Assembly (NCBI GenBank): GCA_000165345.1 | Contig: CM000430.1 | Span: forward strand, 800,001-864,000 | Length of the DNA stretch: 64,000 nt | Direction: 5' to 3' | In this document: positions 8,626 to 59,633 of the stretch, piece after piece | Layout: each line of letters opens with the position of its first letter | How positions within the stretch are numbered: position 1 is the first letter of the stretch | Position numbers and translations under genes: made by a program | Notes under the pieces: model-generated | The model's database searches: none | What the model saw: the letters and a program-made list of their open reading frames with translations, nothing else | Told to the model about the DNA's origin: nothing

Positions 8626-10710
8626 TTATTCAAGAACACTAGTATTATTTGTATCTTCATTGCTAAAACTACCATGAATGTTATTATTCGACTTTAAAAG
8701 TTGAATAAACTGATCATCTTCATTGTAAAGTCCTGACTGTACTAGAGACTCTATATTGTGTGTATAAACGTTATTACTTTTGTTGGAAGTAGGATGTGTT
8801 TCTTTCTCAGGGAATAAATGCACTGCAGCAGCTAAATGTTCAAACTGAGTCTTGTAATGATCTCTGGAAGCCCTCAATATCTGAACACTTTCCTTGAGCT
8901 GTAAGATTTGATCTTCAAATGACTGAATTAACTCATCTTTTCTAAGAAGTTCGTTTTTAAAATACAAATCAGATTTTCTACCAGTTTTTAGACTCTGAAT
9001 CTCTTTGTGAAGCTTTTCGTTAATTTCCTCTTCCTCGCTATATTTCTTGAACCATTTATTTTTTTCAAATTCTGCAATCTGAGTTTTCTTTTTTTCAAGC
9101 TCAAGTTTCATCTTAAACTCATTTTTTTGGGATTCAAGAAGTTTTGTTTGTTCAAATTGAAATAGTTTCATCTTTCTATTGTTTTCATCATTAATATTAT
9201 CTATTGAGTTTTCTTTATTCTTTAACTTAAGTATTTTATTGCTAACTAAATTCTCAAGTCTTCCAAGCTTATTGCTTTTTCTACTAATATCTCCAATGAA
9301 ATCTTTCATGATTGTTTCTTGTCTAATTAAAGTCAACTTTCTGAATTCTTCTTCCAAATTGTGAAGGTGTTGTACGAACCTTTCTTTCTCTGACCTCTTC
9401 CAAATCTCGAAGTTTACCTTTGAGGTATAATCATCGCTATTTTCAAGCCCTTGTTCATACAATTCATCATTATCAATTTCTTTTATGATAGTTTCTATTA
9501 GCTTATTTGAAAAATCAACATCTCCAACAGTGAAATATCCTATCTTTGAGCTAAAATCAGAAATTACGCCAGGGCTTCTAATATTGGAGTCTAATTTATC
9601 ATACATATTTCCAATTTTCAGAAACTCCAAGTCTTCTGGAGAAATAAATTCTTCATCATTACCCGGTTCGTACTTAACATTTCTTGACGTTCTTTGTGGA
9701 GAAAAACTCACTCTTTTGTCAGAAGGAGGGGTTTTGGGTCTGTTCCTTAAATTGTTCCTAGTCCTCTCATTTATTGGAGATTCATTTGTAGCACTTCCTG
9801 ACCTTGGCCTAGATCTAGATCTAGATCTAGATACAGATCTAGGTCTAGAGAATAAAGACGAGTTTTGATCTGTTTTAGTATTTAACGACTTCTGTCTAAT
9901 ACCAGGTGATGATCCATCTGAAATTGGTTGTTTCTTACAATCCTGCAATACTATATCAACCTCTATAAGTCCTATAGGCACGCTCTTTTCTTCTTCTGTT
10001 ACTGAATTCTTACTATTCTTATTTTTCGATTCGCCAGAATTTGGTTCTAATTCAGAATCAGAGAGTGAATCCAACTCATTTGAAGTGTTTTTATGGTCAT
10101 TGGGTACTTGAGATTTTGATGCTGGATATAGTAATATGCGTGTTGGCCAAATTCTGAATGTATTTGAACCAAAAATATAATTACCTGAAATAGTTGGATT
10201 GGTTTTTTCAGTCTGAATTAAAATATGCTTTAAATTGACATAACCCATGGAATGAAGTTCCTGGTCCCCAAAAGTACTAACTTTATAAGCCTCAATTTTT
10301 AAAGGCTCACAGTTTAATCTGTCAAATATATCCTTCCAGGAGCAGACTATTCTAGAAGTTATTTCTATTTCATGATCAGAAAAAATGGTCGTAGATCTTC
10401 TACATGGGTATGGTGGGCTTGTTTTTGGACATTTTGACGGAGATATCTCATTTGTGCTTTTAATTATTTTATACCAATTTGGAGCCTTAAAAATCACAGT
10501 AGCAGGGTCCTGCAAAGTGATTGATCTAAAATGAATAGAAAGGCTCCATATCAAAGATTCGGATGCCCCAAAACCTGCAATATCTGAATCATCATTTTTG
10601 TCTATTTCAATATTAAACCATCCAGATTCTTCTTTAAGTTCATCAAAGTTTAACTTTGTATTATCTAAGTTCTCTAAAGAATACCAATCAGTGTATTCTT
10701 CAGAATTCAT
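8626..10710 (-). CDS. Hypothetical protein with an RS-dipeptide repeat (SRSRSRSRPRS) and a C-terminal coiled-coil
   Basis: 694-aa ORF with ATG at 10710. It has an N-terminal globular region, a central Arg-Ser repeat encoded by the (AGATCT)n tandem at 9795-9850, and a heptad-rich Lys/Glu/Leu C-terminal half. An E2F-like TTTGGCGCCAAA lies about 175 bp upstream at 10883-10894. Confidence 0.55.
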   Translation of the reverse strand: MNSEEYTDWYSLENLDNTKLNFDELKEESGWFNIEIDKNDDSDIAGFGASESLIWSLSIHFRSITLQDPATVIFKAPNWYKIIKSTNEISPSKCPKTSPPYPCRRSTTIFSDHEIEITSRIVCSWKDIFDRLNCEPLKIEAYKVSTFGDQELHSMGYVNLKHILIQTEKTNPTISGNYIFGSNTFRIWPTRILLYPASKSQVPNDHKNTSNELDSLSDSELEPNSGESKNKNSKNSVTEEEKSVPIGLIEVDIVLQDCKKQPISDGSSPGIRQKSLNTKTDQNSSLFSRPRSVSRSRSRSRPRSGSATNESPINERTRNNLRNRPKTPPSDKRVSFSPQRTSRNVKYEPGNDEEFISPEDLEFLKIGNMYDKLDSNIRSPGVISDFSSKIGYFTVGDVDFSNKLIETIIKEIDNDELYEQGLENSDDYTSKVNFEIWKRSEKERFVQHLHNLEEEFRKLTLIRQETIMKDFIGDISRKSNKLGRLENLVSNKILKLKNKENSIDNINDENNRKMKLFQFEQTKLLESQKNEFKMKLELEKKKTQIAEFEKNKWFKKYSEEEEINEKLHKEIQSLKTGRKSDLYFKNELLRKDELIQSFEDQILQLKESVQILRASRDHYKTQFEHLAAAVHLFPEKETHPTSNKSNNVYTHNIESLVQSGLYNEDDQFIQLLKSNNNIHGSFSNEDTNNTSVLE
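9795..9850. repeat. (AGATCT)n tandem repeat, coding for the RS-dipeptide repeat of the 694-aa protein
   Basis: The sequence reads agatctagatctagatctagatacagatctaggtctagag. Confidence 0.7.
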
Positions 10711-11046: not shown

Positions 11047-13245
11047 TTAGCCCCAGAGAATTAGGGATGGTTTTCCGTCTTTGTTAATTCCAGCTGTGAA
11101 TATCCAAGGTTGCCTTGGATGCCAAATAGCTGAGCTAATAAAAGAAAGCTCTCCTTTAATTACCTTTAGAGGGACAAAAACGGGATCACTCATTAGATCT
11201 GTGGGCATTCTGCAATGGAAAACATTAATAGTGCCATTTTTACTAGCAGAGAAAACCATAGATTTTCCTTGGTGGAATTGTACTTTTTTGATAGCTGATT
11301 CACTATATCTTAAAAGTTTATAAGGAGTATTTCCAAGATCCAGATCAAACCAGGCAATTCTTCCATTGGATTGTCCGACAAAGATATGTTTCCCTGAAGA
11401 ATCTAAAGAAATGGTTGTTGGATCTTCAATACCAATAAGTTTTTTGACCAAAGCTTTACCAGTATTTTGGTTACCAAGCTTCTTATTACCTGTTTTACTA
11501 GATGTTAGGTCAACAATCCTAATACATGTTTGAGTAGCAACAATAAGCCATGGGTTAGATGAGTGAAACTGAACAGATTTAACCAATCCACTAAGTTTTT
11601 TAAATGCAGTAATTGATGAGCATCTATTGATAGAATGAATAACAACTCTTTGTGAAGGTGAAATAGCTCTTGGAGATACTGCAGCTAAATACCCTCCTTT
11701 ACTATGCCAGGATAAATGTCTAATAGTAGATTGATGTTTAATTACAACAGCTGAGCTTAATTCTTTATTTAATTCAGAATTAGAATCCAAATTAATGCTA
11801 TTCCATGAAAGTAACTCCAATTTACTGGATTCTTTATTATAAGTATGGAGATCCTCAAATAATTCCAAAGAATGTTGATAATCTTTTATTGGGTCCTTTT
11901 CCTTGTTTTTAGAATTTTTAATTATTTCATCTGAATCCGAAGTTTCTTCCTGTTCAATATCAGTGGAAGCTTCAGAGTCTTCTGCAAAGCAAATGCTTGG
12001 AAGTTTCAGTACTAAAATAAAGAGATATTCCTCAACTCCACAAGCTAAAATAGGCAAATTAGGATGAAACGCTAGAGTTGTTATAGAGTTTGTGTTAGAT
12101 TCTTGTGTTTCATCACTAGAAGATGGTTCATCGTAGATATTTACTTGTTGAGCTAACTTTGATATATCCAATTTAAAAGCTATTCGTGAAGTAGATATTT
12201 CAAATACTGTCAATAGATTACCTACTCCCACAGCTAGCCAGAATCCATCAGATGATGCAGACATTTGTATATTTTTACTGTCAATAATTTGATCAAAGTC
12301 ATATCTAATTCTGATTGAAGTTGGATAAGGTTTCAAATCGCTTGTATCAATTGGGGGAGGCAAGATACTTTCAGGATCAACGTTCATTCTCATTTTCATA
12401 GCTCTAGGACACAAATAAAGATCCAAGCAACGCTCAAACCTTTCAGTAATGAGCTTGTCATAAGCTGGTACCCTTCTTAGACAATCAAATTTAGATGGTA
12501 TAAATGTATTTTCCAGTTCACCCTCTTTCTCAAGCTTAGAAATCTCATCCTCATCAAACAAGTACTCTTCTGGAGGATTATAGCTATGTTCATGAATTGG
12601 GAGTTCCATTCTTGGTGCTGGGATATGAGGAGGCCCTTTAGAAGTAGTTTCATCAACAACCGGATCCAAAATTGCATCTTCCCAAATATCAAATACTTCC
12701 GGTTCCTTCTTCTTAATAGGATGTAAAATCTTAAGCCTTATTAACTTAATTAGATGAGTAATTTTCTTTGCTTCCCATTTAGATGGTATAAATCCGCGCT
12801 TAGGTACTGGTCTGTTTGATACTGGGAATATTTTATCTTCTAGACTGTCATTTTCATAATGGTAGCTTTCCGCATCAAAGTCAGGATTAGCATAAGTTTG
12901 AGATGAAATTCTTCGGATTATGTCCAAATCCTCATCAGTAAGTCTAACTGAAGTCTGATTTTTTTGATCGTATATTGTTCTCCATGCATCTGGATCTGTT
13001 GAATTTAGTAGAGCTTGTAACTCAGAATCTAAAGAGAAAAATGTATTAAATATATTTCAATAAGTACTAAATATAGATCATTGAGTTAACTTACCTGACT
13101 TATTGAGTAGTTTTTTCAGCCTCTCACCGTCGATTGTATATCCTTGGTGATCAAATTCGTCATACCAATGTAAAGGTACATTTCCAACGCGATTTACCTC
13201 CTCATCCTCATCTGAAATGTACAAATTTTCATCGATATACTCCAT
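11047..13245 (-). CDS. BOP1: Ribosome biogenesis protein BOP1/Erb1 (BOP1NT domain plus WD40 repeats), 2 exons
   Basis: Exon 1 is 13245..13095 and encodes MEYIDENLYISDEDEEVNRVGNVPLHWYDEFDHQGYTIDGERLKKLLNKS, which matches the BOP1 N-terminal motif IGNVPLEWYDDYDH. A 66-bp intron (13094..13029) runs from GTAAGT to TTTAG. Exon 2 is 13028..11047 and stays in frame with ORF 11047..12927. BOP1NT signatures include HSYNPPEEYL and RCLDLYLCPR. The WD40 C-terminal half ends ...WHPRQPWIFTAG. An E2F-like AAAGGCGCCAAA lies about 125 bp upstream. Confidence 0.8.
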
Positions 13246-13384: not shown

Positions 13385-13643
13385 TTTCTGCCTCTATAAT
13401 TCTCTTTTTCTTCTATTAGTAGGGTGCTGCTCCAGGTATTCAGTAATGATTAATTTTAAACTGTCTCGTGATTAGAATGAGTGCTTACTCATGTATTTTA
13501 CCACTCATGTAAGATATTTGCTTAGGTTTTTACCTTGTTGATGTTCTTCTTGGTTATCTCATTTTCTAATTTGTGTCTTTACATTCTCAGCATGCACGTT
13601 TTAATATATTAATATTTTGACACGTAAGTTTTAGTAATGAGTT

Positions 13644-13660
13644 GCATGCATTCATGCGCA
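13644..13660. promoter_or_regulatory. GCATGC motif pair TGCATGCATTCATGCGC upstream of the giant gene
   Basis: About 300 bp 5' of the ATG at 13951. There is also CATGCACG at 13591-13598. Confidence 0.35.
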
Positions 13661-13950
13661 AACTTTTTGTAAAACTACCGGTATTAGGAATTATATTATC
13701 ATTTTGAAACATCAAGACAGTAGAAAATTGCAAATAAGCTTACAAAATTAGAGCAAATCAATTAAATGATTTTTAACTCAATTCCTCTTTATTATCAACA
13801 ATGATGAGTGAAATATTACATTCTTCTCATTCTTTTAATGACTTTATAATGAGATAATATATTATTTTTGCCTTGCCGCCCCAAAGTTACGAAATATAAC
13901 ATGTATTGAAAATAAGAAAAAATAAATGTGACAAGGGTTTTGATATTAAA

Positions 13951-16900
13951 GCAATGAGAAATTGCGTTGAGGAAAATGGAGCAAATGGTGTGCAGAGCTT
14001 GATCAAGACATTTGTGAAAGAGGACCCTTCATTTGTGATTTTACAGTCCATTAAAAGTAGTAATTATTTGGAACTTACAGATGGAAGGCTTTTGGTATCG
14101 CATAACCCCAAATTAATAGCGAATTTGACAACTAAAGGTCAACTTAGTGTATTTCTAGATACTTCTAGAGGTGAAATTGAAAATATTGATACTAGACAGA
14201 AGGATATTGTTTTAAAGGAAATTAAATTGCCATTTTTAAAAGAGAAAACTGAGTCAAAAACTGTGATATCAGAAGCTATTTGGTGCAAGTCTATTATAAG
14301 AGAGGATCATCTCAGAGAGTATGAAGTTGCTCCAACTTTGGTTATTCTTGAAAAAACAACAGAGTATATCGAAAAAGACGTCAAATGCAAATACTGTAGT
14401 AAGTATTCAGGAAATCAGTTTTTGACAATAATACAGTTTTCTAGAATTGGAAACTTTGAGGATGGGGAATGTGAAATAATTGAATTGAATGCAAAGAATA
14501 ATTTGGAAAATGTAATCAACTTTAATAGGCCAATATCTATTGATTTTGAAGTTACAAATACTCATAAACCACCTATTTCAAATCAAATGAGAACAATAAT
14601 CAGGTACAGTCGAATTCCAATTATAGATATATTCAATACTTTTTCTAATAAGAAAGCCCAATTTTCCGAAAGCCATAAAACTTGTAAAAGCTGTTTCTCA
14701 TTTAATAATGCTCAAACTTTTGTTGATAACTCCATGGAATCAGGTTTTGTGATAATTATGGCTAATTTGATAGTATTATCTTTGGATTTTATTCAAGGTA
14801 ATTCTTTAATTCTAAAAAGAAGGTTTCTTATTCAAGATTTTCGAGATCCCCAGATTCGCTTTTCTGGTTTTACAATACAAAGTGGATGGCTTGTTTCAGT
14901 ATCTATTGATACTTTGGAGCTATTAATTTGGAACTATTATCAGGGAATAGCCTTTAGAATGGTTAAACTGAGTGAAGATTACTTTGATTTCACAGTTTCA
15001 AATGAGTCAAGAGTTGATGTTTTTGTTACTCTTTCATTTGGAAAAGATTTATCCAAGTTATTTTTAGTCTTTGATGGCTTAAATGAAAATGCTTCCAGTC
15101 ATATAAAACAAGTTGGGATGTATATAATTGATTTAAATGCTATTTTTAGTCAAATTTTCTGCTCTAATTGTATTTTAAAATACTTGATAGACACAAGAAA
15201 AACTTCTGAAATGAGAATATCTGATCCAGGAACTGAATTGAAGAAAAAGTTGCAAATAAGCTCAGGAAGTATACCTCACGTACAATTATATGAAGAGTAT
15301 TCATCGCTCACAGTTTATCCTGAAGCTTTCCATTTTGGAAAAGAACATAAAGCTTTGGAAAAAATCATGAAATGTCTTTCGGAAGAATCTTGTCAATATT
15401 TAGACTCTTTAGATTGGGCAAAAAGCTTGAATCTAAAGTTGGATTTAACAAAATATGAATTTGGATGGCCTCTTTTGTTTAACAAAAGTTGGTTTTATGG
15501 AGATCTATTTTGCAATTATAAGATGAATCAGATCATTATTACTACAATTGAAAATATCATTGCAAGAAACAGCATCGGAGAAGATTTCATAGATAATTTT
15601 GAAGAGCTAAGTAATAATATATATTTAAAGACAATTTCTAGCCATTTAAAAAAGGTTTTAGAAGGGATCCCTGAAATTTTATTTTCGAAAACAATAAGTC
15701 CTAAACAAAGTAATAAGAATTGCTCAGAAATACTTGGAAATCAAGAAACTGATAATCATTTTCAACGTAAATTGATATCTCACAAAACTAGCTTTATATA
15801 CAGTCATTTAATTCCAATTACCATTGATGAATTTCCAAATCATGAAGAATTTCAATACGAGATTAGTTTTATCGATATTATTCCATCATCTGATACAGTT
15901 TTAATACAATTTTCTATTCGAGATTTACCTAAGAAGCATCTAAGCTTTTACATTTCTGAAGAAAGCAAAAATCTTTTTATTAATCAGTTAAGCTTTGAAT
16001 GTGAATATACTACGTTGATTATGGGTTTAACTAAAGTTATAGATTGGCATTACTTTGCACTGAAAGATGTTAGAAGGGAGAAATCTTACCTTGGTCTTTT
16101 TTCAAAAACTATAAGCTTACTTGGGCTCATTTATTCCACTGTAAGGTACCAGGATATTGACAATTTGCAAAAAATTTGTGAGTATAACAATGTAGATCCA
16201 TGCATTATTCCATTAATACAATTGGAAATAGGATTCAAACATGAAGAATTAAAGCTTATTAGCCTTTCTTTGGAAAATACTCCAATGATACTTAATCTAG
16301 AAATGGTTAAACTAGCAAGAAATATGTTGCAAGATGCTAATTTGCATTTATCTTTGGATTTTACAAGAGAATCATCCAAGCTTTTCCTTGATTTTTGCCT
16401 GGACAAAATCAAATATTATTCCGAGAATGAGTCAACAGAGATTTCTGAAGAAAAAAACCAACAAAAGTGTAAGGTTGATGAGTTTCTACAAGAAATTTCT
16501 TACTATTTGTCAGAATTTAGAATGTATTTAAATAAGACTTCAGAATTGACAACCTATGTAAAAGTTTGTGACAACATACAAAAAGGTGATCAAAATTCAG
16601 AGGATGAATTGATTAACGAAACAAACAAAGTAGCTGATGAAGATGGAAGTAATCATGATAATGAGATTTTGAGTAAAAATGAGATATTTATAAGAGACCA
16701 GATAATAATGGGACATTATTCAAGTTTAATTGATTGGTATTTAAAAAGTAGCAAAGATAAAAACCCTCAAGTATTTAGATTAAAAGTTTTACATGATATT
16801 TATAGACTGATTTGTACTTTAAGTACGAATTCTTTAACATTATCAATCCATATGTTGAGACAAATTGGTGAGAATACAACACAGTATCTTAAAAGCATTC

Positions 16901-19900
16901 TGTATTATACAAGTAGAAGAGAAATTAGAAGAAGACTAATTAACCATTTAAAGCACTTTGGTGCCTTAAATGATGATGATATTGCTCTTATTCAATTCAG
17001 TAATGAATTGGAGAGTTACTATCCAAATAATTGTTATTCTGTGGAAAGAAATAGGATCTGGACATCATTATTTACTTATTCTATTCCATATAATGTTTTA
17101 TCAGATTGTAACTTGGAAAATGAGTTCAAGGTTAATACTGATAATGAACTAATCATTCAAGAAAGTATAGAAGGTGGAGTATCCATCAATGATTGTTTTG
17201 TTTCTAATGAAAATTTAGACGAATACTATTTCTATGGAGGTATTGATCAAGGAAGCCATGTAAACAATCCTATTTTTTCGGCAATGACTTATCCATTTGG
17301 TGGATTGCAAGCTTTAAAGTCCGGATTCAAAATAAACCAGGAGTATAATTTACAATATCTTGAGGATTGTAGGAGAATTAAAAGTGTTACCAGTATCTCA
17401 GCCAAGAAATTATCAAATAATAAGGATGATGGTTATAGAACAGAAAACAAAGAAAATGTTGAAATTAGTAACAGAGACTTCTTTTATTCAAACTTTTCTA
17501 CTGAAGCTATTGCTACTTGGGAAGGTTTAAAGTGTTTTGAAATAGAAGACTACGATTTAGAATTAAATAATGACCTTTATATACAAGAAGGAATTTCAAA
17601 AGGGCAAGAGGTTGAAAATGATAGAATTTCTGGCAAAAATATGAATACAGTAATTTCTAGTATTCCTGAGCAAGAAGGAAATGATTTTATTCGTCTTAAC
17701 AATGGTAGACTGGTTTCTATTAAGAATTCAAGCTGTAAACAGTGTTTAGATTTGAACGAAGATGAAGAGCTTGAAATTGAGGAGGAGTTACTCAATTATG
17801 AAAATGAATTTGGGCAATTATTATTATCCAAAAATGATTCAAAAGAAAGTTTTTCTATATCTTCTCAAAAGGAGCATATATCTTCAAATTCATCAATTAT
17901 ATTATCCCCAAGCCCAATATCAAGCTCATTAGAGAAGATTCAGCTAAATACTACCAATTTTGGAGATCATAATTCTAAGAGAGGTGATCTAACATGGCTC
18001 AGACTTCAAAGACAAAGAAGAGAAATGATTAACAACAATTTCAACAATTTTGGTTATTTAAATCATTCACTAAAATTTTTGAGTGAATGGTCGTTTGATG
18101 TTTCTATTAGAGTAGTCATTGAAAAAACTCACCTTCAGGTTTGCTTTGTTTGGAACCGACTATTAAGAGGATTCCAAACCCCTCCAAAGAGAAATGAAGC
18201 TTTAGTATATTCTCTTTTGAATTTAATCATCAGGAAGACTACAATACAACTTTCAAATAACTTGGATTATGAAATTAATTTGCAAGTTGCAAAGACAATT
18301 ACTTCTAGTATTTACATTGCAGTATTTGGATTTATTTTTTCTCATTTTGAATGGAAAAATATTCCAGCTTCAATGAACTATTTGGATAATACACTTTTTC
18401 TAATGTTCAAATATTTTAATGTGGAAGAATCCTACAAGTATGAATTATTGAATGAAATAATTCGTCTCAATTTTAAGTATAGTCCGAAATTTATTGTTGA
18501 AGTGTTTTTGAATTCTTTAGATTCATCTGGAATTGTTCCAATACATCACTTAAAGGCTGATTTGTTGCAAGAGAAGATCAATCAAATTGAGATTGACAGA
18601 TATAATAATGTTAAATATATTCTTGATAAATGCATCAGATATGGTAACTATGGAATTTATCTTTTTAGATACTACTTAATGAAATCCAATGAATTCACTT
18701 CTAAAGAATCATTACATACTTTTTTATCAGTAATTGAGAATTCTAGAGAAACCAATATTAAAGAAGAAAATCAACAAAATCAAGTGGATTATACTGATTA
18801 TTTAAATACTATATATGTTTATCTAGATAGAAAGCAAGATATAATTTTGCTTTCTCTAAAACAGACTTTCAATTCCCTTAAATCAAGTATTGATGAGAAT
18901 ATTTATTTATCTCTCCTAAATGGCTGTACTGAAAATGAGTTTGAAGTTAAGAAGGAAGAAATAGATCAATTTGACCTTAAAAAGTTGGATAGTCCAGGAT
19001 TCATATTAAATGTCTTAATAAGGTACTTTAATAACTACTATGAAAGCGTGCCTGGACCTGATGAGAGAGAAGAGGAGAAAAGGGAGGAAAAGAAAGAGGG
19101 AGAGGAGAAAGAGGAGGAAGAAAATGAGGAAAAGGAGGAGAAAGAGGAAAAGGAGGAGAAAGAGGAAAAGGAGGAGAAAGAGGAAAAGGAGGAGAAAGAG
19201 GAAAAGGAGGAAAATGAAGAAAATGAAACGAAAGAAGAAAATAAGGATAAAGATATCGAACAATCAGAGTTTAAAGGAAAAGATAAAAGGATCAAAATAA
19301 CCCCATATTATATTCTTTCAATTTTATTTTCATTGGATATACCCAGAAAAGAGATATATAATCAAGAATTCTACCAATTTCTTAGAAAATTCTTTCCCTC
19401 TTTAGTAAAAGTATTCAGGGAAGCATTTTTAAAAGAAAAAGTATGCATTGATCAGATTCAAGGAGATTGTTTTAATAAAATGAATGCAAATGATAATAAA
19501 GAATTGAATTCAGATTCTTCAACATCATTTAATATTACTCAGATAATAAAAATGACAGATAAAAACTCAGACTCTTTGATAAAATTGATGGAATTGTATC
19601 CAGAGTTAAGAGAGAAACTTAAAGAAAACCCTAATAATACGGATGAATTTTTTGAAATATTTTCTGAAAACCTAAAAAAAGTAATAGAAGAAGAAGAAAA
19701 AGAAGAAGAAACAGAAAAATCATTCGAAATTTCTGAAGATAAATTAAGCTTACCTATATTACATTATATATCAATAGGAAGACCATTTTTTGCATTTAAT
19801 CTTTTATGTATGAGACATGCAAAATTTCATAATAGTTTAGAGTATAAACAATTTAAAAAGGAGGATTTAAAGTTCCCAGAATTGTCAATGGAAGAAAAGA

Positions 19901-22900
19901 TTGAAATTTATGAATCAGTATATACATTAGCAATTCGAAACTTTACCAGAGATACTGTTGTTTGTAGTAGTGTAATATTTATTTCTATGTTAGAATTACC
20001 AACAGAACTCTTATGTACTGATATAAGAGTTGCAAGATGTATATATCTTCACCAAATTCATAAGAAAGATGAAGGAGACATTAAATCTAAAGTAAATTAT
20101 GATACAAAAGAAATGGATATTCAAATAGATTCAAAGAATTCTGGAAAGATTAATGAAATTTGGAATTTATTTCTTAAATTTGGACCTCCTAAAATAAGCT
20201 CATATTTGGAAAACAATGATGATTACAATGATCAAGATATTCTTAAAGAGTTTCAAGATAACCAAAAGTACTCTAGTTCCTTATTTTCAGTATTAAAGAT
20301 GCTTGAAGAAGCAGCTTGGGCAACTGGTGATATCATAACAGGAGGTAATAATAATGAAGAAAACAATTCTGTTTCAGATCAAGACAATCAAAGTATTGAA
20401 AATGTTGATTTACTTCCACATACTCCCATTTGGCATCTAGTAGCAACTTTCTGTAGAATTCATGGATTACCAAGATCTTTGACTTTATTACATGAATTAG
20501 CTAGAAGAGGAGAATGGGTAGCATTTCTACAAGAATGTGATTCTCAGAAATGTCCATTAGAAACTGTTGGGAATATTATTAATGAGTACATGTCAGAGAA
20601 TCCTGTTTTAAAGTTACATTTAAAGATTGCATTAAAAATTAATGATGATAATGATAATCAAGTTAAAAGTAAGAGCGAATTCTTATATGAATCTAACAAA
20701 GAAAGTGACTATATTATTAGTTTAGTACAATGGGACAAGTTATTTTATTCCTTAAAATTGGATAATGTTGAATATAAGTTGGATGAAGAGAAGATTTCTG
20801 AGTTTTATGAATGGTCAGTTAAACAAGTTTTTAAAGAGATAATACAAGAAATGAGTGTTAATAGAGTTATACTATATTATTCACTTTTTGAAGAGCATTA
20901 TTTGGACTTGGTTGAGAAATTTCCAAAGATGAAGAATAAATTCAAAGAATTAATAAATTCTTCAATTAATTCTTATTTATTAATAGAATTAATTAACACT
21001 TTATGTTATATTTCTATTAATGATAATATTGAAAACCTTCAAGATCATGATATATGGAAGGAAATCTTTGACTTTGAAATAATTCAGGGATTTGAAAACA
21101 TTCAAGGCTCAAATAATGAAATAAAACATCTTAAAAAGTTAGTACAAGAGTTTATATTATCAATTTTTCAAGGAAATAAGTTTGTTCAAATTCCAAATTC
21201 TTGTCAAGATAGAAATCAAATAATTTCAGATCATGAGACAGATATCAATTCAGATACTGATGAAGAAGATTTCTTATTAGAAGATAAAAGTGATTTGTTA
21301 TTAAATAGATTTGTTGAAGAAACTAAGGATGTTATGTTGAAGATGAATGAATTAAAACTAATCATAAGTTTAGATTCTTTGGATATACTTTTTAGGATTA
21401 TTGTTGATAATAATTGTGATGATGATACAAATCAAGATAGTTCAAGTTTAAGTATGACTGGAAAAACTTCAAAACTTATAAACAAAGATGAGACAACCAT
21501 ATTACTTTGGAAATTACTTTCTAATTTAAATGAAAGTGGATTGTTATGTAGGGCTTCAACTCTATTTTATGGAAAAGACACTCAAATAACAATGATTTTC
21601 AATACTATTGAAGCTTTATATTCATATGATGTGGAAAAAGCAACAGAGAATTTGAATAAAGTCTTAATTTGTAATCAATTCGATTTAGAAAGGAATAGAC
21701 AAATTTTTGGATTTTTACCACGTAAGGATTTAGTGAAAAATTACTTTGAGCAAGAGTTTTTGGGATTATATGGTAAAATAACAGTAGAAGATCATAGAAT
21801 ATTATGGAAGATTTTAAGCGAGTTAAGTTTGGAAAACAGATATCCAAAAAATGAAACTCTTTTTTTTGATATAGAAAACCATGGATATAGAAGACATATT
21901 ATAGATATATTATATTTGAATCTGGATGATTATCAAGTCACTTTTGAACAATTTGAAAATTGGTTATGTGTACCTGAGAAGACTCTATTAAAAGATTTTT
22001 ATCACCAGCAAAAGTATGCATTACTTTTAAAATATTTGGAGGAGTCATCTTCTGCATCATGTAGAACATTATTGAATGATGAAGAAGTTTTTAATTGGTT
22101 AGAAGGTTCATTTTTGAGTGATATTGCAAATGAATTGGAGATATTTTCAACAAATATTAACTTTAAGTCATCATTACAGAGAATAGAATTCATTAAGAGT
22201 TATTTTTGGTCTGAATTGAAGAATTTATCTATTTCAATTCAAAAGATCTCTATGGAATTGACTCCTTTATTTTTACTTAAGATCTCAATTTTTTGTTGGT
22301 ATTTCTTTGAAAAACTGGAAAGATGGCTTTCAACTTTTGACCAAGTTATCTTAATTTCTATTTCTATTCATTTTATATTGGAGACTTTAGAAATTATGGA
22401 CTTAAGAAAATCAATAGATTTCAAACCTTTGAATAATATGGAAAATGATTATGGAAATGATAACATGGATAATAATGACTACGGGAATGGTATTAATACT
22501 ACTAGTGATCAAACCAGTTACGAATATAGAAAAGAAGTTGAAAATATAAAAAGCAGAATATTAGAATTTGTTCCAAAGTATTTTGATCAGAAGTATGTTC
22601 AAGAGTGTCTAAAATATGCAAGTTATAAGCTATTTATGTTGCTTTTATCTAATATTAATATTCAAGATTTAAGAAAAAGTAAAGTAAAAACAATATTACA
22701 AGGATTAAGTGAATTAATTTCTCAAATAGGAAAAAATAAATTAAAATTCACAGATTTTGAATTTGAATATAATTCACAATATTTTGATTTACTTGAAGAA
22801 ATTTTCCTCTCTAGTAGAGGAAATCCAGTAATATTTACTCCATCTGGATATTTTAATTTCAAGAATGTAACCATAGAAGTCCCCTTTAGTATACAAATCC

Positions 22901-25800
22901 CAAGTAAAATTTCATTGGTTGATCATCCTGTTGATTCAAAGAATGTTCACAATTCTGTTGAAAATATTGTTAATTACATGTTTGATATTGATTTAGCATT
23001 TAACATTGGCATGAGATTTATTCCTAATATGAAAAACAAACTGGAAGTTTCTAAACAAAGATTTTATCGAAAATTCAAAATATTTACTCAAAAACTTTAC
23101 AATAATAATGATACAAAGTCTATGGATTCATCAGGGAATTCAGATTCAAATAATAATACTGATATTTTAAATCTAGAAAATACTTCAACCTCTTCTTCAA
23201 TTAATTTAAGTAGAAGCTTGCAAGCTTGGGATTCAATTACAGATTATTTGATTGAAATGTACTATATCTCTTCAATATTTACAAGAGTTATTTTTATATG
23301 GTTATTTCAAAGTTTTGGTAAAAGTCAATTAAATGATTTAATACATAAAGAGCTTGAAAATAGTAAATCTTCAGAAATAAATAATTTTAATAAATTTCTG
23401 ATCAAGTCTATTAAATATACAGAATCATCTTCATCACCTTCTTCTTCTAAATCAAATCAAAAAGAAAGTGTTAATATTGTTTGGAGAAGTTTTATGTTGG
23501 CTTTTAGTGAAGCTGAAGAACTTTCTTTATCTAATGTTACATATAGAATGAAATTACAATCAATTTTGACATTATTTCAATTTACCAATCAAGTTGATCA
23601 TATTTCAAGATCTAAATACTCATATTATATAGAAAGTATAAGAGAAAAAGTTATTGGAATACTTGAAGATTCTGGTTTTTCAGAAAATTACTTAATTGAA
23701 GATCTTAATAACTTGGGAAATTTTGATGAATCGAATTTATTAAAGATTTCAATATTTATACTTAAAATATTTTCATCAAATGAGGTTATTCCTATTTTCA
23801 AGAAGATATTGGAATTATCTATTCTTTTTGAATATATTCATACAGAAAATGATAAAACTCATATAATTAAATTTAAAACAGTACAAAAATGTCTTAAAGT
23901 TATATTAATAAATAATACTTATATAGAAAAAAAACAATTGGATAATATGCTTATAGAATTAATTAAAGAAATTATTGAACAATTTCATAACAAGCCTTTT
24001 ATAACATCAATATTATATCAAATATGCCAGTTAATTATGAATCCTGATACAGTAATGGAAACTTTGACAGAAGATATTGAATTAAATCAAATTAATAATG
24101 AAGTTGGAATAGTAAAGATTAGAGAATCAATATATTTACATTTAACAAGATATTATTTAGTAATGATAGATTTTCATGAAGAAGGTATTTCAAAAGATGA
24201 TGAATATAGTCAAAGAATAATAAATGATACAATTTCTAAAATAGATCAATTATTAACACATCATTCTAAACAAGAATTTGATTTGGTATTATTCACAAAT
24301 ATATTATTAGAGATTCCAGAAATTCCTTCACTTGAAGAATTAACTTCAAATCAAATTAATCAAGTTTTAATGAATCTTGATTTTGATACTAATAATGGAA
24401 CTTTACAAAATTCAAGTTCTCGTATATTACCTAGCAATTGGATTAGAGTATTAATTTCACAGCGTGTTTTAAATATATATAAAAAAAGAGAATTACAAGA
24501 TAAAAGTAATATTATTTTTGGATTATATAACAAACCAAATATAAATTTGATTGAAACAAAATTGAATAATCCTGATTTATTAGCAGAGTTTCTTGTAAAG
24601 AAATGTCTTTCAAATCAGTGGAAAACTGGCATAGATTTCATGTATTCAAAGTATGGTCAATATGATCTAATGATTGCATTACAAACTTTGATTGAGTCAT
24701 GTGAATTATTAAAGTTTACAGATTATCAGCAAACTTTTAGAGTTTATCAGAACTTAGCAGGACTATTTTCTTTACAACTTTATTTTGCTAGTTCCTATTC
24801 AAGAGTTAAGAATATTGATTTAAATTCTAATTTGGATAACTGTAAAACAATCCAAAATTTTTCAAATAATGGGATAATTAATCAAGAAACTAAAAAAAGT
24901 GTTTATGATCGGCTTTCTTGTATAGTTAAAAAAGAGGAATTGAATCAGCTTTTTGGAGATTTGTGCGAAACTAATAAGAGTAATAATAATGATATGGTTG
25001 GAAAAGGAACTTTGACTCAAGAAGATAGATATAGATTTGAAACAGAAAAGATTCGACTTCTCAATTTAGATCTGGTTGAATTGTTTGAAGTTGTATCAGA
25101 TCCACAAATTTGCTATAATCCAGCTATGATTATAGTAATATTAAATGGGTACGAGTCTATTTATGGACCTATAGTACATTCAGTATGGCCAAGAATATTA
25201 TTCATTCAATCAATCATTATAGGTAGGTTTAAGTTCTTGGATGATTATAAACACGAATTTGGAGCTTTGAACGAAGAGATTTTATTATCTATGATTAGAT
25301 TGTATAACAATTCACTTAATGAAGATAATGATGATAACTTGGAAAAAATCAATGGAATGACTTTTTATGACTTTATCAAGTCTAATGATGATGGTAATAA
25401 TAGTAGTATATTTGAAAGTTCTGAAGAAACTTTAAGAGTTGAATTTGATAGTCAGGAATTGGCATTTTACCATGGCTACTCAGATCTTGATCAAGATCTT
25501 GACCAAGATGAAGAACAAGATCCAGAACAAGAAGATTGCCATAACCCTAATATTTACGATTTAGCATTAAGTTGGAATGAGAGAGGGACTAGAGAAAAAC
25601 TTTCAAAGATGAAGAATGAAGAAATTCTCTCAAATTGGACAAAATTAATTCAAAACTACATAGAAGATTTACAACTTAGAATTTCTGTATGTAAAATGGT
25701 AGATGAGGATGGACTTTCAAATGTAATCCTTTTAAACAAGAAGTTATATAATGACAAGTCACTTTACAAGTTTAATTTGACAAACAATATTGATTGCTAG
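13951..25800 (+). CDS. Giant hypothetical protein (about 3950 aa), single exon, with an internal acidic (EEKEEK)n repeat
   Basis: An uninterrupted 11.9-kb ORF. The track starts it at a TTG at 13906; the first in-frame ATG is at 13951. No catalytic or Walker motifs were recognised. Composition suggests an N-terminal beta-rich region followed by a long alpha-helical body. The GAGGAGAAAGAGGAAAAG tandem at about 19069-19240 encodes the EEKEEK repeat. Confidence 0.7.
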   Translation, partial: AMRNCVEENGANGVQSLIKTFVKEDPSFVILQSIKSSNYLELTDGRLLVSHNPKLIANLTTKGQLSVFLDTSRGEIENIDTRQKDIVLKEIKLPFLKEKTESKTVISEAIWCKSIIREDHLREYEVAPTLVILEKTTEYIEKDVKCKYCSKYSGNQFLTIIQFSRIGNFEDGECEIIELNAKNNLENVINFNRPISIDFEVTNTHKPPISNQMRTIIRYSRIPIIDIFNTFSNKKAQFSESHKTCKSCFSFNNAQTFVDNSMESGFVIIMANLIVLSLDFIQGNSLILKRRFLIQDFRDPQIRFSGFTIQSGWLVSVSIDTLELLIWNYYQGIAFRMVKLSEDYFDFTVSNESRVDVFVTLSFGKDLSKLFLVFDGLNENASSHIKQVGMYIIDLNAIFSQIFCSNCILKYLIDTRKTSEMRISDPGTELKKKLQISSGSIPHVQLYEEYSSLTVYPEAFHFGKEHKALEKIMKCLSEESCQYLDSLDWAKSLNLKLDLTKYEFGWPLLFNKSWFYGDLFCNYKMNQIIITTIENIIARNSIGEDFIDNFEELSNNIYLKTISSHLKKVLEGIPEILFSKTISPKQSNKNCSEILGNQETDNHFQRKLISHKTSFIYSHLIPITIDEFPNHEEFQYEISFIDIIPSSDTVLIQFSIRDLPKKHLSFYISEESKNLFINQLSFECEYTTLIMGLTKVIDWHYFALKDVRREKSYLGLFSKTISLLGLIYSTVRYQDIDNLQKICEYNNVDPCIIPLIQLEIGFKHEELKLISLSLENTPMILNLEMVKLARNMLQDANLHLSLDFTRESSKLFLDFCLDKIKYYSENESTEISEEKNQQKCKVDEFLQEISYYLSEFRMYLNKTSELTTYVKVCDNIQKGDQNSEDELINETNKVADEDGSNHDNEILSKNEIFIRDQIIMGHYSSLIDWYLKSSKDKNPQVFRLKVLHDIYRLICTLSTNSLTLSIHMLRQIGENTTQYLKSILYYTSRREIRRRLINHLKHFGALNDDDIALIQFSNELESYYPNNCYSVERNRIWTSLFTYSIPYNVLSDCNLENEFKVNTDNELIIQESIEGGVSINDCFVSNENLDEYYFYGGIDQGSHVNNPIFSAMTYPFGGLQALKSGFKINQEYNLQYLEDCRRIKSVTSISAKKLSNNKDDGYRTENKENVEISNRDFFYSNFSTEAIATWEGLKCFEIEDYDLELNNDLYIQEGISKGQEVENDRISGKNMNTVISSIPEQEGNDFIRLNNGRLVSIKNSSCKQCLDLNEDEELEIEEELLNYENEFGQLLLSKNDSKESFSISSQKEHISSNSSIILSPSPISSSLEKIQLNTTNFGDHNSKRGDLTWLRLQRQRREMINNNFNNFGYLNHSLKFLSEWSFDVSIRVVIEKTHLQVCFVWNRLLRGFQTPPKRNEALVYSLLNLIIRKTTIQLSNNLDYEINLQVAKTITSSIYIAVFGFIFSHFEWKNIPASMNYLDNTLFLMFKYFNVEESYKYELLNEIIRLNFKYSPKFIVEVFLNSLDSSGIVPIHHLKADLLQEKINQIEIDRYNNVKYILDKCIRYGNYGIYLFRYYLMKSNEFTSKESLHTFLSVIENSRETNIKEENQQNQVDYTDYLNTIYVYLDRKQDIILLSLKQTFNSLKSSIDENIYLSLLNGCTENEFEVKKEEIDQFDLKKLDSPGFILNVLIRYFNNYYESVPGPDEREEEKREEKKEGEEKEEEENEEKEEKEEKEEKEEKEEKEEKEEKEEKEENEENETKEENKDKDIEQSEFKGKDKRIKITPYYILSILFSLDIPRKEIYNQEFYQFLRKFFPSLVKVFREAFLKEKVCIDQIQGDCFNKMNANDNKELNSDSSTSFNITQIIKMTDKNSDSLIKLMELYPELREKLKENPNNTDEFFEIFSENLKKVIEEEEKEEETEKSFEISEDKLSLPILHYISIGRPFFAFNLLCMRHAKFHNSLEYKQFKKEDLKFPELSMEEKIEIYESVYTLAIRNFTRDTVVCSSVIFISMLELPTELLCTDIRVARCIYLHQIHKKDEGDIKSKVNYDTKEMDIQIDSKNSGKINEIWNLFLKFGPPKISSYLENNDDYNDQDILKEFQDNQKYSSSLFSVLKMLEEAAWATGDIITGGNNNEENNSVSDQDNQSIENVDLLPHTPIWHLVATFCRIHGLPRSLTLLHELARRGEWVAFLQECDSQKCPLETVGNIINEYMSENPVLKLHLKIALKINDDNDNQVKSKSEFLYESNKESDYIISLVQWDKLFYSLKLDNVEYKLDEEKISEFYEWSVKQVFKEIIQEMSVNRVILYYSLFEEHYLDLVEKFPKMKNKFKELINSSINSYLLIELINTLCYISINDNIENLQDHDIWKEIFDFEIIQGFENIQGSNNEIKHLKKLVQEFILSIFQGNKFVQIPNSCQDRNQIISDHETDINSDTDEEDFLLEDKSDLLLNRFVEETKDVMLKMNELKLIISLDSLDILFRIIVDNNCDDDTNQDSSSLSMTGKTSKLINKDETTILLWKLLSNLNESGLLCRASTLFYGKDTQITMIFNTIEALYSYDVEKATENLNKVLICNQFDLERNRQIFGFLPRKDLVKNYFEQEFLGLYGKITVEDHRILWKILSELSLENRYPKNETLFFDIENHGYRRHIIDILYLNLDDYQVTFEQFENWLCVPEKTLLKDFYHQQKYALLLKYLEESSSASCRTLLNDEEVFNWLEGSFLSDIANELEIFSTNINFKSSLQRIEFIKSYFWSELKNLSISIQKISMELTPLFLLKISIFCWYFFEKLERWLSTFDQVILISISIHFILETLEIMDLRKSIDFKPLNNMENDYGNDNMDNNDYGNGINTTSDQTSYEYRKEVENIKSRILEFVPKYFDQKYVQECLKYASYKLFMLLLSNINIQDLRKSKVKTILQGLSELISQIGKNKLKFTDFEFEYNSQYFDLLEEIFLSSRGNPVIFTPSGYFNFKNVTIEVPFSIQIPSKISLVDHPVDSKNVHNSVENIVNYMFDIDLAFNIGMRFIPNMKNKLEVSKQRFYRKFKIFTQKLYNNNDTKSMDSSGNSDSNNNTDILNLENTSTSSSINLSRSLQAWDSITDYLIEMYYISSIFTRVIFIWLFQSFGKSQLNDLIHKELENSKSSEINNFNKFLIKSIKYTESSSSPSSSKSNQKESVNIVWRSFMLAFSEAEELSLSNVTYRMKLQSILTLFQFTNQVDHISRSKYSYYIESIREKVIGILEDSGFSENYLIEDLNNLGNFDESNLLKISIFILKIFSSNEVIPIFKKILELSILFEYIHTENDKTHIIKFKTVQKCLKVILINNTYIEKKQLDNMLIELIKEIIEQFHNKPFITSILYQICQLIMNPDTVMETLTEDIELNQINNEVGIVKIRESIYLHLTRYYLVMIDFHEEGISKDDEYSQRIINDTISKIDQLLTHHSKQEFDLVLFTNILLEIPEIPSLEELTSNQINQVLMNLDFDTNNGTLQNSSSRILPSNWIRVLISQRVLNIYKKRELQDKSNIIFGLYNKPNINLIETKLNNPDLLAEFLVKKCLSNQWKTGIDFMYSKYGQYDLMIALQTLIESCELLKFTDYQQTFRVYQNLAGLFSLQLYFASSYSRVKNIDLNSNLDNCKTIQNFSNNGIINQETKKSVYDRLSCIVKKEELNQLFGDLCETNKSNNNDMVGKGTLTQEDRYRFETEKIRLLNLDLVELFEVVSDPQICYNPAMIIVILNGYESIYGPIVHSVWPRILFIQSIIIGRFKFLDDYKHEFGALNEEILLSMIRLYNNSLNEDNDDNLEKINGMTFYDFIKSNDDGNNSSIFESSEETLRVEFDSQELAFYHGYSDLDQDLDQDEEQDPEQEDCHNPNIYDLALSWNERGTREKLSKMKNEEILSNWTKLIQNYIEDLQLRISVCKMVDEDGLSNVILLNKKLYNDKSLYKFNLTNNIDC
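19069..19240 (+). repeat. Coding tandem repeat (GAGGAGAAAGAGGAAAAG)n encoding an EEKEEK acidic repeat inside the giant ORF
   Basis: Direct 18-bp periodicity. It generates three mirror artefact ORFs in the track (19015..19263-, 19038..19295-, 19040..19300+). Confidence 0.8.
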
Positions 25801-26888: not shown

Positions 26889-29800
26889 TCAATTGTTAAT
26901 TACAATAGCTTCAGGAGTATTTGGAAGGGAGTCCATATAGTTAGTAGAAAGAGGAAAATCGTTGTCTGAATCATTAATTTCCTTGGAGTTATCCTTGGAT
27001 TCTTCCTCAAGCTTAATATTAGAATTGTTTTCTTGGATTTTACGATTAGAGGTATTACCCTTATTTTTTTGAGCCTTTGAATTTGACTTTCCTTTCTTCT
27101 TTACAGGTTGTAAAGTAGTGGCATTCTTTTGGTTCTTCTTACTTTTACTACTAGGATTACTATATAGGTAATCATCTTCATAATCGTCATTTTGGACACC
27201 ACTATCATCCTCCCCACCTTCTTCATCTTCCTTATCCTCCTCATTTTCATTTTCGTCTTCATCCTCATCCTCGTCCTCATCCTCATCCTCCCATTTCTGA
27301 CTACGAAGTTTACGCCCTTTAGTAACAGTATCTCTTCTTAAAACTCTTCTTGTCACACTGGAACAGTTGTCAAAGTCTTCAGCTTCTTCATCATCGCTAA
27401 AAGAAATGATCTTTCTCCTTTTTGACAAACTCTTATTATCTGAAGAAGATCCGTTCAAGTCAGGAGGAGGTGAATTTGAGGAATTAGAAGAAAAGTAAGC
27501 TGACGATTTTCGTCTCTCTTGTCTATCTTGTCTCTTAAAGGTTGAAATATTTCTCAAAGAGCCTCTTTTACCTCTCAATGATGATAATGAAAAAAGAGAG
27601 TTATTACCTTTTCCAATAAATTCTGAATTACTTTCGTTTGATAAAGAAGGAAGAGATCTCCTTCTCTTATTTGTCTCTTTTAGTAACTCTTTTGAAATAT
27701 CAGTAATTTCTCCTGCCTCGTATTTTTCCATTACTCTTAAAAAAGCTCTCTCACTAAGTCCTTCCACACATAGATAATCCTTATTTGATTTCCATCTTGA
27801 TTTTCTCTCTGATCTGTCCAAATCACGAATTTCATTCAAATTATTATCTTCAATACCTAATTCAGCATTCACCTCATTTGGTGGTCTTACAATCCAATCT
27901 GGAACTTCTTGCATCTTTATCATTCTTCCAGATTTCTCCAAACATTCAAGGTAAATCTTACTATCTTCCAATGTTAAAACTTCTTGAGATTTTGAATTCT
28001 CATTCTTTGATTCTCCTAAAACTTCTTCTTGAGATTCTTGTTCTTCCATTTGAATGCTTTTCTGTCTTCTTCCTGGTTTTTTTGGTCTCAAAGGAGATTT
28101 TGAAATATTCTGACCATACTTTAGTAAATTTGAATCAGTATCTTCATTATCCTTTTCTATTTCTTTAATATTCTTATTATTTGTTAATGATTTCTTTGTT
28201 ATATTCTTACTCCAATCCTGAATCTTTTGATATATATTCTTACCAAATGTTTTCTTATCCATCTCTTCAAAAGCCTTCAGTTCTTCATCATTTCTAGCCA
28301 AAAATTGGTTAATCTCTGATGGTGTTGTTACTCTTGAATCACTCTTATACTCCTCCTTACCAAATAACTCTTTAAGCCTATCCTCCCTCTCTTCCTCTTC
28401 AACTTGAGTTGAGTTAAACATTCCTGCTTGAATAATTTTATGATCAATCTCCAATTTCTTCTGAGCACGCTTTAAAACTAACTCTTCTACTCCTGAAATT
28501 GAAACAAAACGTAATACTCGAACTTCATTCTTTTGACCCATTCTATGAGCTCTACTTTGAGCCTGAAGATCTTGATGAGGATTCCAATCTGAGTCAAAAA
28601 TTATTACAGTATCAGCAGCTTGAAGATTTAAACCTAATCCTCCAGCTCTTGTTGATAAAACAAAAACAAACTTCTCAGAATCTGGAGAATTAAATTCATC
28701 CATTTTCTCCTTTCTTTCTTGTATTGTCATTGTTCCATCCAATCTATGATGTTCGATACCTCTATAATCTAAAAAGTCACCCAAAATATCCATTAACTGT
28801 GTCATTTGACAAAAAATTAGTACTTTATGACGAAAACGAATCAATTTTGGAAGCATTCTATCCAAAACTTCAAATTTACAACTCACTCTAAAGATATCAT
28901 CATCCTCTATTAAATACTCCTCCACAAATAGATATGGATGATTAACTATCTTTCTAAGCTGCATTATTGTATTACTAACTGATCTATATTGAATCTTCCC
29001 ACTTGAAAGATCCATAGAATGTACTGCTTTTTGTTTGATTTGATCATAAACAATCTTTTGCCAAGGAGTAAGCTCCATTCTAACAATATATTCCTTCTTT
29101 TCTGGTAGATCTTGTAATACATCTGACTTTACTCTTCTTAATAGAAATGGTCTCAAAATTGAATGTAATCTACTTATTACAAATAATCTCTCCTCTTCTG
29201 AAAGTTCTAAACTAGCTTCATTTGATGGAAGATCACTAAATGGTTTACTAAACCAAACTTGAAAATCTTCAACAGAATGAAAAACTTGTGGTAATAAGAA
29301 ATTAAGTAAAGACCATAATTCTGTAATACTATTCTGAAGTGGGGTACCGGTTAATAATAATCTATTTTCTGATTTAAAATCTGCTAATACTACATGAAAT
29401 TTGCTCTTTGAATTCTTTAAACGATGACCTTCATCTACTATAATATGTTTCCATTGCATTGATTGTAAAGCTCCACTTTCTCTGATAATGAAGTCAAATG
29501 TAGTCAAACATACATTAAATTTAGTTTGTCTCATTTCATAAATAAGTGATCTTCTTTCATATCTACTTCCTTTAAAACAAAGTATTTTCAATTCTGGACT
29601 CCAGATCTCAAACTCTTTTTGCCAATTTGGTAAAGTAGATAATGGTACAACAACAAGATGAGGACCTTGATTATCTTTATGTTCATATAAATATGTCAAT
29701 AATGCAATAGTTTGAACAGTCTTTCCAAGTCCCATTTCATCAGCTAGAATACCGTGTAATTTGTTATTATAAAGACTTAACATCCATTCAACTCCAATGA

Positions 29801-54252: not shown

Positions 54253-55332
<1,080 letters not shown>

Positions 55333-56063: not shown

Positions 56064-59633
<3,570 letters not shown>

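What the first reader, a model, noticed from the sequence alone, without database searches (positions are those of the whole stretch)
13951..25800. An 11.9-kb intronless ORF (about 3950 aa) with no recognisable enzymatic motifs takes up about 19% of the window
No P-loop, kinase, BEACH, chorein, FYVE or RING signatures were found by eye. Composition suggests an N-terminal beta-rich (propeller-like) region followed by a very long helical solenoid. A short acidic EEKEEK expansion is encoded by an 18-bp tandem. Proteins with this architecture in other eukaryotes (spatacsin-like, HPS/BLOC-like, Nup188/192-like, HEAT/ARM scaffolds) are trafficking or nuclear-pore scaffolds. The identity here is unknown and worth remote-homology analysis.
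Basis: inference. Interest (0 to 1): 0.5.

Follow-up and report, generated by a model that had tools for sequence, protein, structure and literature searches.

The report
Cryptosporidium's oversized spatacsin (SPG11) gene
The 11.9-kb intronless gene is real and encodes a very divergent, 60% enlarged version of spatacsin (SPG11), the scaffold protein that works with the AP-5 vesicle-adaptor complex in other eukaryotes, so it is a recognisable member of a known family rather than a mystery protein.

Summary
The ORF is real: stop-to-stop 13906-25800 (+), first ATG 13954, 3948 aa, with no stop codon where chance would give about 1e-149. Full-length orthologues exist in 10 other Cryptosporidium species. 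BOP1 and SNF2 flank it in the window and also in C. ryanae. Pfam and PDB sequence searches of the protein, and of an 8-orthologue profile, found nothing.

An exhaustive profile search with the central tile found 94 relatives. These include proteins that sources name spatacsin (Branchiostoma, Selaginella), plant proteins with strong Pfam Spatacsin_C domains, and Vitrella and Toxoplasma homologues. Vitrella's protein carries Spatacsin_C (E 1e-30) and matches human spatacsin (PDB 8yad_B) at E 1e-19.

Profile-profile comparisons show collinear homology:
- window 730-1028 and 1937-2228 to canonical spatacsins (E 1e-10 and 7e-17);
- window 908-2228 to Vitrella (E 2e-47);
- window ~3533-3785 to the distal part of Vitrella's and Toxoplasma's Spatacsin_C.

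The parts
13954..25800 (+). Complete intronless coding sequence of the spatacsin (SPG11) orthologue: 3948 aa plus stop
   Evidence: ORF list and translation. Orthologues in 10 other Cryptosporidium species. Conserved synteny.
14032..16101 (+). N-terminal WD40-type beta-propeller region (aa ~27-716). About 27-28 predicted strands, consistent with seven blades.
15133..15795 (+). Helical insertion plus linker inside the propeller (aa ~394-614: helices 394-570, low-confidence linker 573-607). It follows 19 strands, so it probably sits between strands c and d of blade V.
   Evidence: Secondary-structure order in the model. Human SPG11 has a ~100-residue, partly helical insertion at blade V c/d (bioRxiv 10.1101/2024.06.14.598999). 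The placement is inferred from strand counts, not from coordinates.
16141..17037 (+). First conserved alpha-solenoid block (aa 730-1028), homologous to residues 500-840 of amphioxus spatacsin
   Evidence: hhalign of 11 Cryptosporidium against 4 canonical spatacsins: 97% probability, E 1.3e-10. HMM match to Vitrella 1045-1196, E 6e-33, and to Toxoplasma and Besnoitia.
16675..20637 (+). Long collinear solenoid region (aa 908-2228) aligned to Vitrella spatacsin 1046-2281
   Evidence: hhalign probability 100%, E 1.8e-47 over 1058 columns.
19102..19253 (+). 18-bp tandem repeat encoding the acidic EEKEEK run (aa 1717-1767): a lineage-specific low-complexity insert
   Evidence: Tandem Repeats Finder: period 18, 8.6 copies, 83% matches. 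Lowest conservation and 60% gaps among orthologues. It is the source of all spurious Pfam and PDB hits.
19762..20637 (+). Central spatacsin signature region (aa 1937-2228), homologous to amphioxus spatacsin 1258-1474 and to human SPG11 ~1182-1410
   Evidence: hhalign 98.8% probability, E 6.7e-17. Exhaustive hmmsearch hits centre on this block. Vitrella to human mapping.
20425..20634 (+). Near-invariant core motif (aa 2158-2227): PIWHLVATFCRIHGLPRSLTLLHELARRGEWVAFLQECDSQKCP...
   Evidence: 94% mean identity to the window sequence across 8 orthologues over aa 2151-2200. BLASTP to human SPG11 1343-1408: 29% identity, E 1e-8. Multi-species alignment of the motif.
24550..25323 (+). Divergent distal part of the Spatacsin_C domain (aa ~3533-3790), followed by a ~160-aa tail
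   Evidence: C-terminal tile HMM hits Vitrella (full E 2e-12) at 3272-3325 and 3437-3496, inside its Pfam Spatacsin_C (3115-3492), and also Toxoplasma and Digyalum. hhalign window 3733-3784 to Vitrella 3441-3491, E 8.6e-6. Iteration 2 reaches amphioxus 2494-2578, E 5e-5. The direct comparison to canonical proteins is weak (E 0.004), and Pfam itself does not hit.

Best explanation
The ORF encodes the Cryptosporidium orthologue of spatacsin (SPG11), enlarged to 3948 aa from ~2300-2650 aa in animals and plants. Shown here: it has the family's three-part layout in the family's order. That layout is an N-terminal seven-blade-type WD40 propeller with a helical insertion, a very long alpha-solenoid carrying the family's signature block (W-LV--FCR-H-L--S---L--LA----W--F), and a divergent distal Spatacsin_C region. 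Inferred from the human complex: the propeller docks and assembles the AP-5 adaptor (zeta/beta5/mu5). The solenoid intertwines with an SPG15-like partner whose FYVE domain binds PI3P. Together they would form a non-clathrin coat or scaffold that tubulates and sorts membrane at a late-endosome-like compartment. In this parasite that compartment probably feeds post-Golgi or secretory-organelle traffic. The extra ~1500 aa are spread along the protein (about +230 before the first block, +490 between the blocks, +400 before the C-terminal domain, +160 as a tail) and include lineage-specific low-complexity inserts such as the EEKEEK run.
Confidence: 0.85

Rival explanations
1. It descends from spatacsin but has been repurposed. 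Enlarged by ~1500 aa, in a cell that lacks AP-3, sigma5 and a classical lysosome, it would act as an AP-5-independent or SPG15-independent scaffold, for example in secretory-organelle or feeder-organelle biogenesis.
For: The protein is 60% longer than canonical spatacsins. The Spatacsin_C region is so divergent that Pfam misses it. Large stretches (aa 2230-3530) have no detectable counterpart outside Cryptosporidium. Woo et al. 2015 report sigma5 missing and suggest AP-5 in cryptosporidia may be in the course of being lost.
Against: The propeller, which is the AP-5-binding module in human, and the central solenoid block are under strong constraint across 11 species. AP-5 zeta, beta5 and mu5 are retained in cryptosporidia. 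Hirst 2011 found that SPG11 co-occurs with AP-5 across eukaryotes.
Confidence: 0.12
2. It is an unrelated WD40-plus-solenoid scaffold (nucleoporin, HPS/BLOC, HEAT/ARM protein) and the similarity to spatacsin is convergent or spurious.
Against: Sequence-level homology is specific and collinear in four or five separate blocks, with E-values down to 1e-47. Every full-length, source-named hit is a spatacsin or a Spatacsin_C-containing protein. No other family appeared in any search.
Confidence: 0.02
3. The long frame is a non-functional relic or an assembly or annotation artefact.
For: None beyond its unusual size and its low-complexity insert.
Against: The chance of such an open frame is about 1e-149. 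Intact orthologues of 3552-3903 aa exist in 10 other species at 27-89% identity, with many invariant residues. Synteny is conserved.
Confidence: 0.01

Closest known systems
Human spatacsin (SPG11, 2443 aa; PDB 8yad, 8yab, 8yah)
   Different: The window protein is 1500 aa longer. Its Spatacsin_C is too divergent for Pfam. It has lineage-specific acidic and Asn/Asp-rich inserts and a ~160-aa tail after the C-terminal domain. The link to the human sequence is significant only for the core block or through intermediates.
Alveolate giant spatacsins: Vitrella brassicaformis CEM20910 (3554 aa), Toxoplasma TGME49_224870 and Besnoitia BESB_061820 (~7600 aa)
   Same: They are similarly enlarged. They are collinear with the window protein over aa 908-2228 (E 2e-47) and at the N- and C-terminal blocks. 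The LPRSLTLLHELAR core is nearly identical.
   Different: Vitrella and Toxoplasma still score on Pfam Spatacsin_C (E 1e-30 and 3e-26), whereas Cryptosporidium does not. The coccidian proteins are about twice as long again.
Clathrin heavy chain and COPI alpha/beta' (proto-coatomer architecture)
   Different: No sequence-level homology to these was found here. Spatacsin works as a heterodimer with SPG15 rather than as a cage-forming triskelion.

Membership tests
Spatacsin (SPG11) family | Significant, collinear sequence homology to bona fide spatacsins along the solenoid, including the central W-LV--FCR-H...W--F signature block | tested here: met
   A Cryptosporidium-only profile hits named spatacsins in a 1.84-billion-protein library at E 1e-8 to 5e-4. 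hhalign to canonical spatacsins: 98.8% probability, E 7e-17, and 97%, E 1e-10. To Vitrella spatacsin: E 2e-47. BLASTP to the human segment: E 1e-8.
Spatacsin (SPG11) family | C-terminal region homologous to the Spatacsin_C domain (Pfam PF14649) | tested here: met
   Met only for the distal ~2/3 and only through intermediates. The window 3300-3948 profile hits Vitrella at 3272-3325 and 3437-3496 (full E 2e-12), inside its PF14649 match (3115-3492, E 1e-30), and also Toxoplasma and Digyalum. hhalign gives E 8.6e-6. Iteration 2 reaches amphioxus Spatacsin_C at E 5e-5. Caveats: PF14649 itself gives no hit on the window protein or its orthologues at E<=1 (E<=10 for the window protein). Direct hhalign to canonical proteins is weak (E 0.004). 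The proximal third was not detected.
Spatacsin (SPG11) family | N-terminal seven-bladed WD40 propeller, with a helical insertion in blade V, followed by a helical linker | tested here: met
Spatacsin (SPG11) family | Co-occurrence with the AP-5 adaptor complex in the same genome | not testable with these tools
   This rests on literature only. Woo et al. 2015 (PMC4501334) report that cryptosporidia have AP-5 lacking only sigma5. The Cryptosporidium proteome could not be queried here with AP-5 sequences.
Spatacsin (SPG11) family | A heterodimer partner, SPG15/spastizin (FYVE-containing alpha-solenoid), present and bound | not tested
   No SPG15 query sequence was available. No FYVE protein is encoded in this window. 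Binding needs experiments or complex modelling.
   No such Pfam domain at E<=10. None of these families appears among the 94 exhaustive-search hits that were named or scanned.

The most novel reading that the evidence does not exclude
Cryptosporidium keeps a 60% enlarged spatacsin together with a sigma5-less AP-5 in a cell that has lost AP-3 and has no classical lysosome. The complex may therefore have been rewired into a parasite-specific coat, for example for microneme, rhoptry, dense-granule or feeder-organelle traffic. The ~1300 aa between the signature block and the C-terminal domain, which have no detectable counterpart outside the genus, could carry new interaction modules.
Probability: 0.15. 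Interest if true: 0.55.

Novelty: new member of a known kind. Interest (0 to 1): 0.3.

Why it matters
This gives a name and a testable function to one of the largest unannotated genes of an important diarrhoeal parasite. Close relatives label it only 'WD repeat' or 'Armadillo-like helical'. It also supplies a missing piece of the AP-5 story in Apicomplexa: the 2015 survey that found AP-5 in Cryptosporidium did not look for SPG11 or SPG15. The result shows that Pfam's Spatacsin_C model misses this lineage, so surveys of AP-5/SPG11 loss that rely on it will produce false negatives. The near-invariant core block, shared from humans to Cryptosporidium, marks a functionally critical surface of a human disease protein (hereditary spastic paraplegia type 11). 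None of this changes what is known about the family.

Tried and rejected
Searches that found nothing useful:
- Pfam on the protein and on all 8 orthologues gave only sub-threshold hits to the acidic repeat.
- PDB sequence search with the protein and with the 8-sequence profile gave nothing.
- The word-indexed 5.8-billion-protein search, run with the single sequence and with the alignment, returned only the same 7 Cryptosporidium orthologues. The third allowed search was not used.
- Pfam on eight of the ~1200-aa metagenomic hits and on C. muris gave nothing.

Structure work that fell short:
- The AF2 model of the central tile aa 1870-3050 with 8 sequences was too poor (pLDDT 49) to justify a fold search.
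- The afdb50 fold library was unavailable, so the model could not be compared with AlphaFold models of spatacsins.

Literature searches:
- 'Cryptosporidium + spatacsin', 'AP-5 + Chromera + Cryptosporidium' and 'TGME49_224870' each returned no papers.
- Hirst 2011 did not sample Cryptosporidium.

Alternatives considered and rejected for lack of any hit: nucleoporin, HPS/BLOC, BEACH, VPS13, PIKK, APC1, DMXL/rabconnectin.

Full report
**Observation.** The + strand carries an open frame from 13906 to 25800. It yields a 3948-aa product, and the C. meleagridis orthologue begins with the same MRNC(V/L)EENG sequence. The window is 29% G+C, so 8.3% of random codons would be stops. The chance of 3964 stop-free codons is about 1e-149. 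No ORF of at least 150 aa overlaps it on the other strand. Tandem Repeats Finder confirms the 18-bp repeat (GAGGAGAAAGAGGAAAAG, 8.6 copies, 19102-19253), which encodes the EEKEEK run at aa 1717-1767. This is the least conserved and most gapped segment among orthologues. It also produced all the spurious sub-threshold Pfam and PDB hits. The flanking genes are BOP1 (11047-12927, -) and an SNF2-family ATPase (26889-31547, -). The same order is present in C. ryanae, one of the two most distant intestinal-clade orthologues recovered. Composition, lack of introns and the hit list place the window in the genus Cryptosporidium. The closest protein in the database is from C. meleagridis at 88% identity, so a C. 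parvum/hominis-group species is likely; this is inference.

**Why it looked unknown.** Pfam finds no domain in the protein or in any of its seven closest orthologues. A PDB sequence search with the protein, and with an 8-sequence profile, finds nothing. The word-indexed search of 5.8 billion proteins returns only seven Cryptosporidium orthologues at 37-88% identity, named 'WD repeat' or 'Armadillo-like helical'. Conservation mapping showed several strongly constrained blocks. The strongest is aa 2151-2200, at 94% mean identity to the window sequence across 8 orthologues.

**Identification.** I used the single exhaustive HMMER search on a profile of the central tile (aa 1870-3050), built from Cryptosporidium sequences only (alignment A2). 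It returned 94 proteins at E <= 1e-3 from 1.84 billion. Nearly all share the block around aa 2154-2222.
- Hits that sources name: C. muris and C. andersoni (3550 aa), Vitrella brassicaformis (3554 aa), Toxoplasma TGME49_224870, Besnoitia and Polarella, all 'Spatacsin C-terminal domain-containing protein' in UniRef; Branchiostoma 'spatacsin-like' (E 7e-6) and Selaginella 'spatacsin' (5e-4); plus Diphasiastrum (1e-8) and wheat (4e-6), which are not so named but whose wheat cluster mates are.
- The amphioxus, Selaginella, wheat and Diphasiastrum proteins carry Pfam Spatacsin_C at E 1e-69 to 1e-104. Toxoplasma scores 3e-26 and Vitrella 1e-30.
- Vitrella's protein matches human spatacsin (PDB 8yad_B) at E 1.2e-19 in eight collinear segments. 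The best segment holds the motif WALVVQFCRLHNMKLSISYLRECAKANDWLQF, the counterpart of the window's WHLVATFCRIHGLPRSLTLLHELARRGEWVAF.
- BLASTP of the window block against that human segment gives 29% identity and E 1e-8. A multi-species alignment shows the motif conserved from human to Cryptosporidium.

**Extent of homology.** hhalign of an 11-species Cryptosporidium alignment against four canonical spatacsins gives two collinear matches. Window 1937-2228 aligns to 1258-1474 (98.8% probability, E 7e-17), and window 730-1028 aligns to 500-840 (97%, E 1e-10). Against Vitrella the match runs from 908 to 2228 (100%, E 2e-47). Further collinear matches lie at 283-461 (E 2e-5), 3533-3609 (E 0.0075) and 3733-3784 (E 9e-6). 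Vitrella in turn aligns with canonical spatacsins over 1908 columns (E 4e-71).

A profile of the window's C-terminal 650 aa hits Vitrella at full-sequence E 2e-12, in two blocks that lie inside Vitrella's Pfam Spatacsin_C domain. It also hits Toxoplasma and the apicomplexan Digyalum. One iteration reaches the amphioxus Spatacsin_C at E 5e-5. The direct profile-profile link from this region to canonical proteins is weak (E 0.004, 8% probability). It is nonetheless collinear and shows a shared YG...W...G-F--(F/Y)LDDY pattern. I conclude that the distal two-thirds of Spatacsin_C are present but highly divergent. The proximal third was not detected.

The strand count of 27-28 fits seven blades. 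The insertion after 19 strands would fall between strands c and d of blade V. That is where the human structure has its ~100-residue, partly helical insertion (bioRxiv 10.1101/2024.06.14.598999). This placement is inferred from strand order, not from coordinates. The central-tile model was poor (pLDDT 49) but entirely helical.

**Mechanism.** Shown: the protein has the spatacsin layout and no catalytic domain. Inferred from the human complex: the propeller-hairpin bridges the zeta/sigma5 and beta5/mu5 halves of AP-5. The solenoid coils around SPG15, whose FYVE domain binds PI3P. The hexamer senses curvature and remodels late-endosomal or lysosomal membrane. Woo et al. 2015 report that cryptosporidia lack AP-3 but keep AP-5 except sigma5; they did not examine SPG11 or SPG15 (PMC4501334). 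Hirst et al. 2011 showed that SPG11 and SPG15 co-occur with AP-5, but they did not sample Cryptosporidium (PMC3191125). The gene therefore fits as the outer-scaffold partner of a retained AP-5 pathway. Whether an SPG15 exists in Cryptosporidium was not tested.

**Differences from known spatacsins.** The protein is about 1500 aa longer than animal or plant spatacsins. The excess is spread along its length and includes low-complexity inserts. About 1300 aa between the signature block and the C-terminal domain have no detectable counterpart outside the genus. Pfam's model misses the C-terminal domain across the whole genus.

**Verdict.** This is a real gene. It is a new, enlarged and divergent member of the known spatacsin family. 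By its own criterion the finding becomes routine. Interest is modest. The result is useful for annotation, for the AP-5 story in Apicomplexa, and as a warning about false negatives from Pfam-based surveys.

Noticed in passing
Related proteins P0010-P0027; locus L002 10001-13645: About 18 unnamed metagenomic proteins of ~1000-1400 aa carry the spatacsin signature block at about aa 740-870. Their E-values (1e-31 to 1e-25) are as good as or better than Toxoplasma's. The eight that were scanned have no Pfam domain, including no Spatacsin_C. P0010 lies on a compact, intron-poor eukaryotic contig next to SMC, V-ATPase E and ADA2 genes, 870 bp from the contig end. These may be truncated gene models, or a short spatacsin-like form in unsampled protists.
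   Followed up: partly
window 56064-59633 (+), 49220-50692 (+), 60098-61672 (+), 35410-36222 (-): Other recognisable genes in the window are a formin (FH2, E 3e-17), an NIF/CTD-like phosphatase (E 9e-49), a B-box zinc-finger protein (E 4e-9) and a GST C-terminal-domain protein (E 6e-9).
   Followed up: partly
window 421-1899, 2499-4205, 4799-5770, 8626-10710, 32732-34219, 36657-38045, 38690-40927, 42302-43432, 44615-45802, 47392-48501, 51800-53605, 54253-55332: Twelve further ORFs of 323-745 aa have no Pfam hit at E<=1e-5. Like the spatacsin gene, some may be divergent members of known families that need profile-level searches.
   Followed up: no
window 13600-13660 (upstream of the gene): The shared intergenic region between BOP1 and the spatacsin gene contains palindromic GCATGC/TGCATGCA motifs. 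I recall such motifs being described in Cryptosporidium upstream regions. This was seen by eye only and not tested.
   Followed up: no
Pfam PF14649 against Cryptosporidium proteins: The current Pfam Spatacsin_C model gives no hit at E<=1 even on C. muris, although UniRef names that protein 'Spatacsin C-terminal domain-containing protein'. Either the name comes from another signature or an older model, or the model's sensitivity for this lineage has changed.
   Followed up: no
Toxoplasma TGME49_224870 cluster members: In different T. gondii strain annotations the spatacsin locus is split into 2-4 partial gene models (A-D, 880-7673 aa). Its true length of ~7600 aa, as in Besnoitia, is probably under-annotated in several strains.
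   Followed up: no
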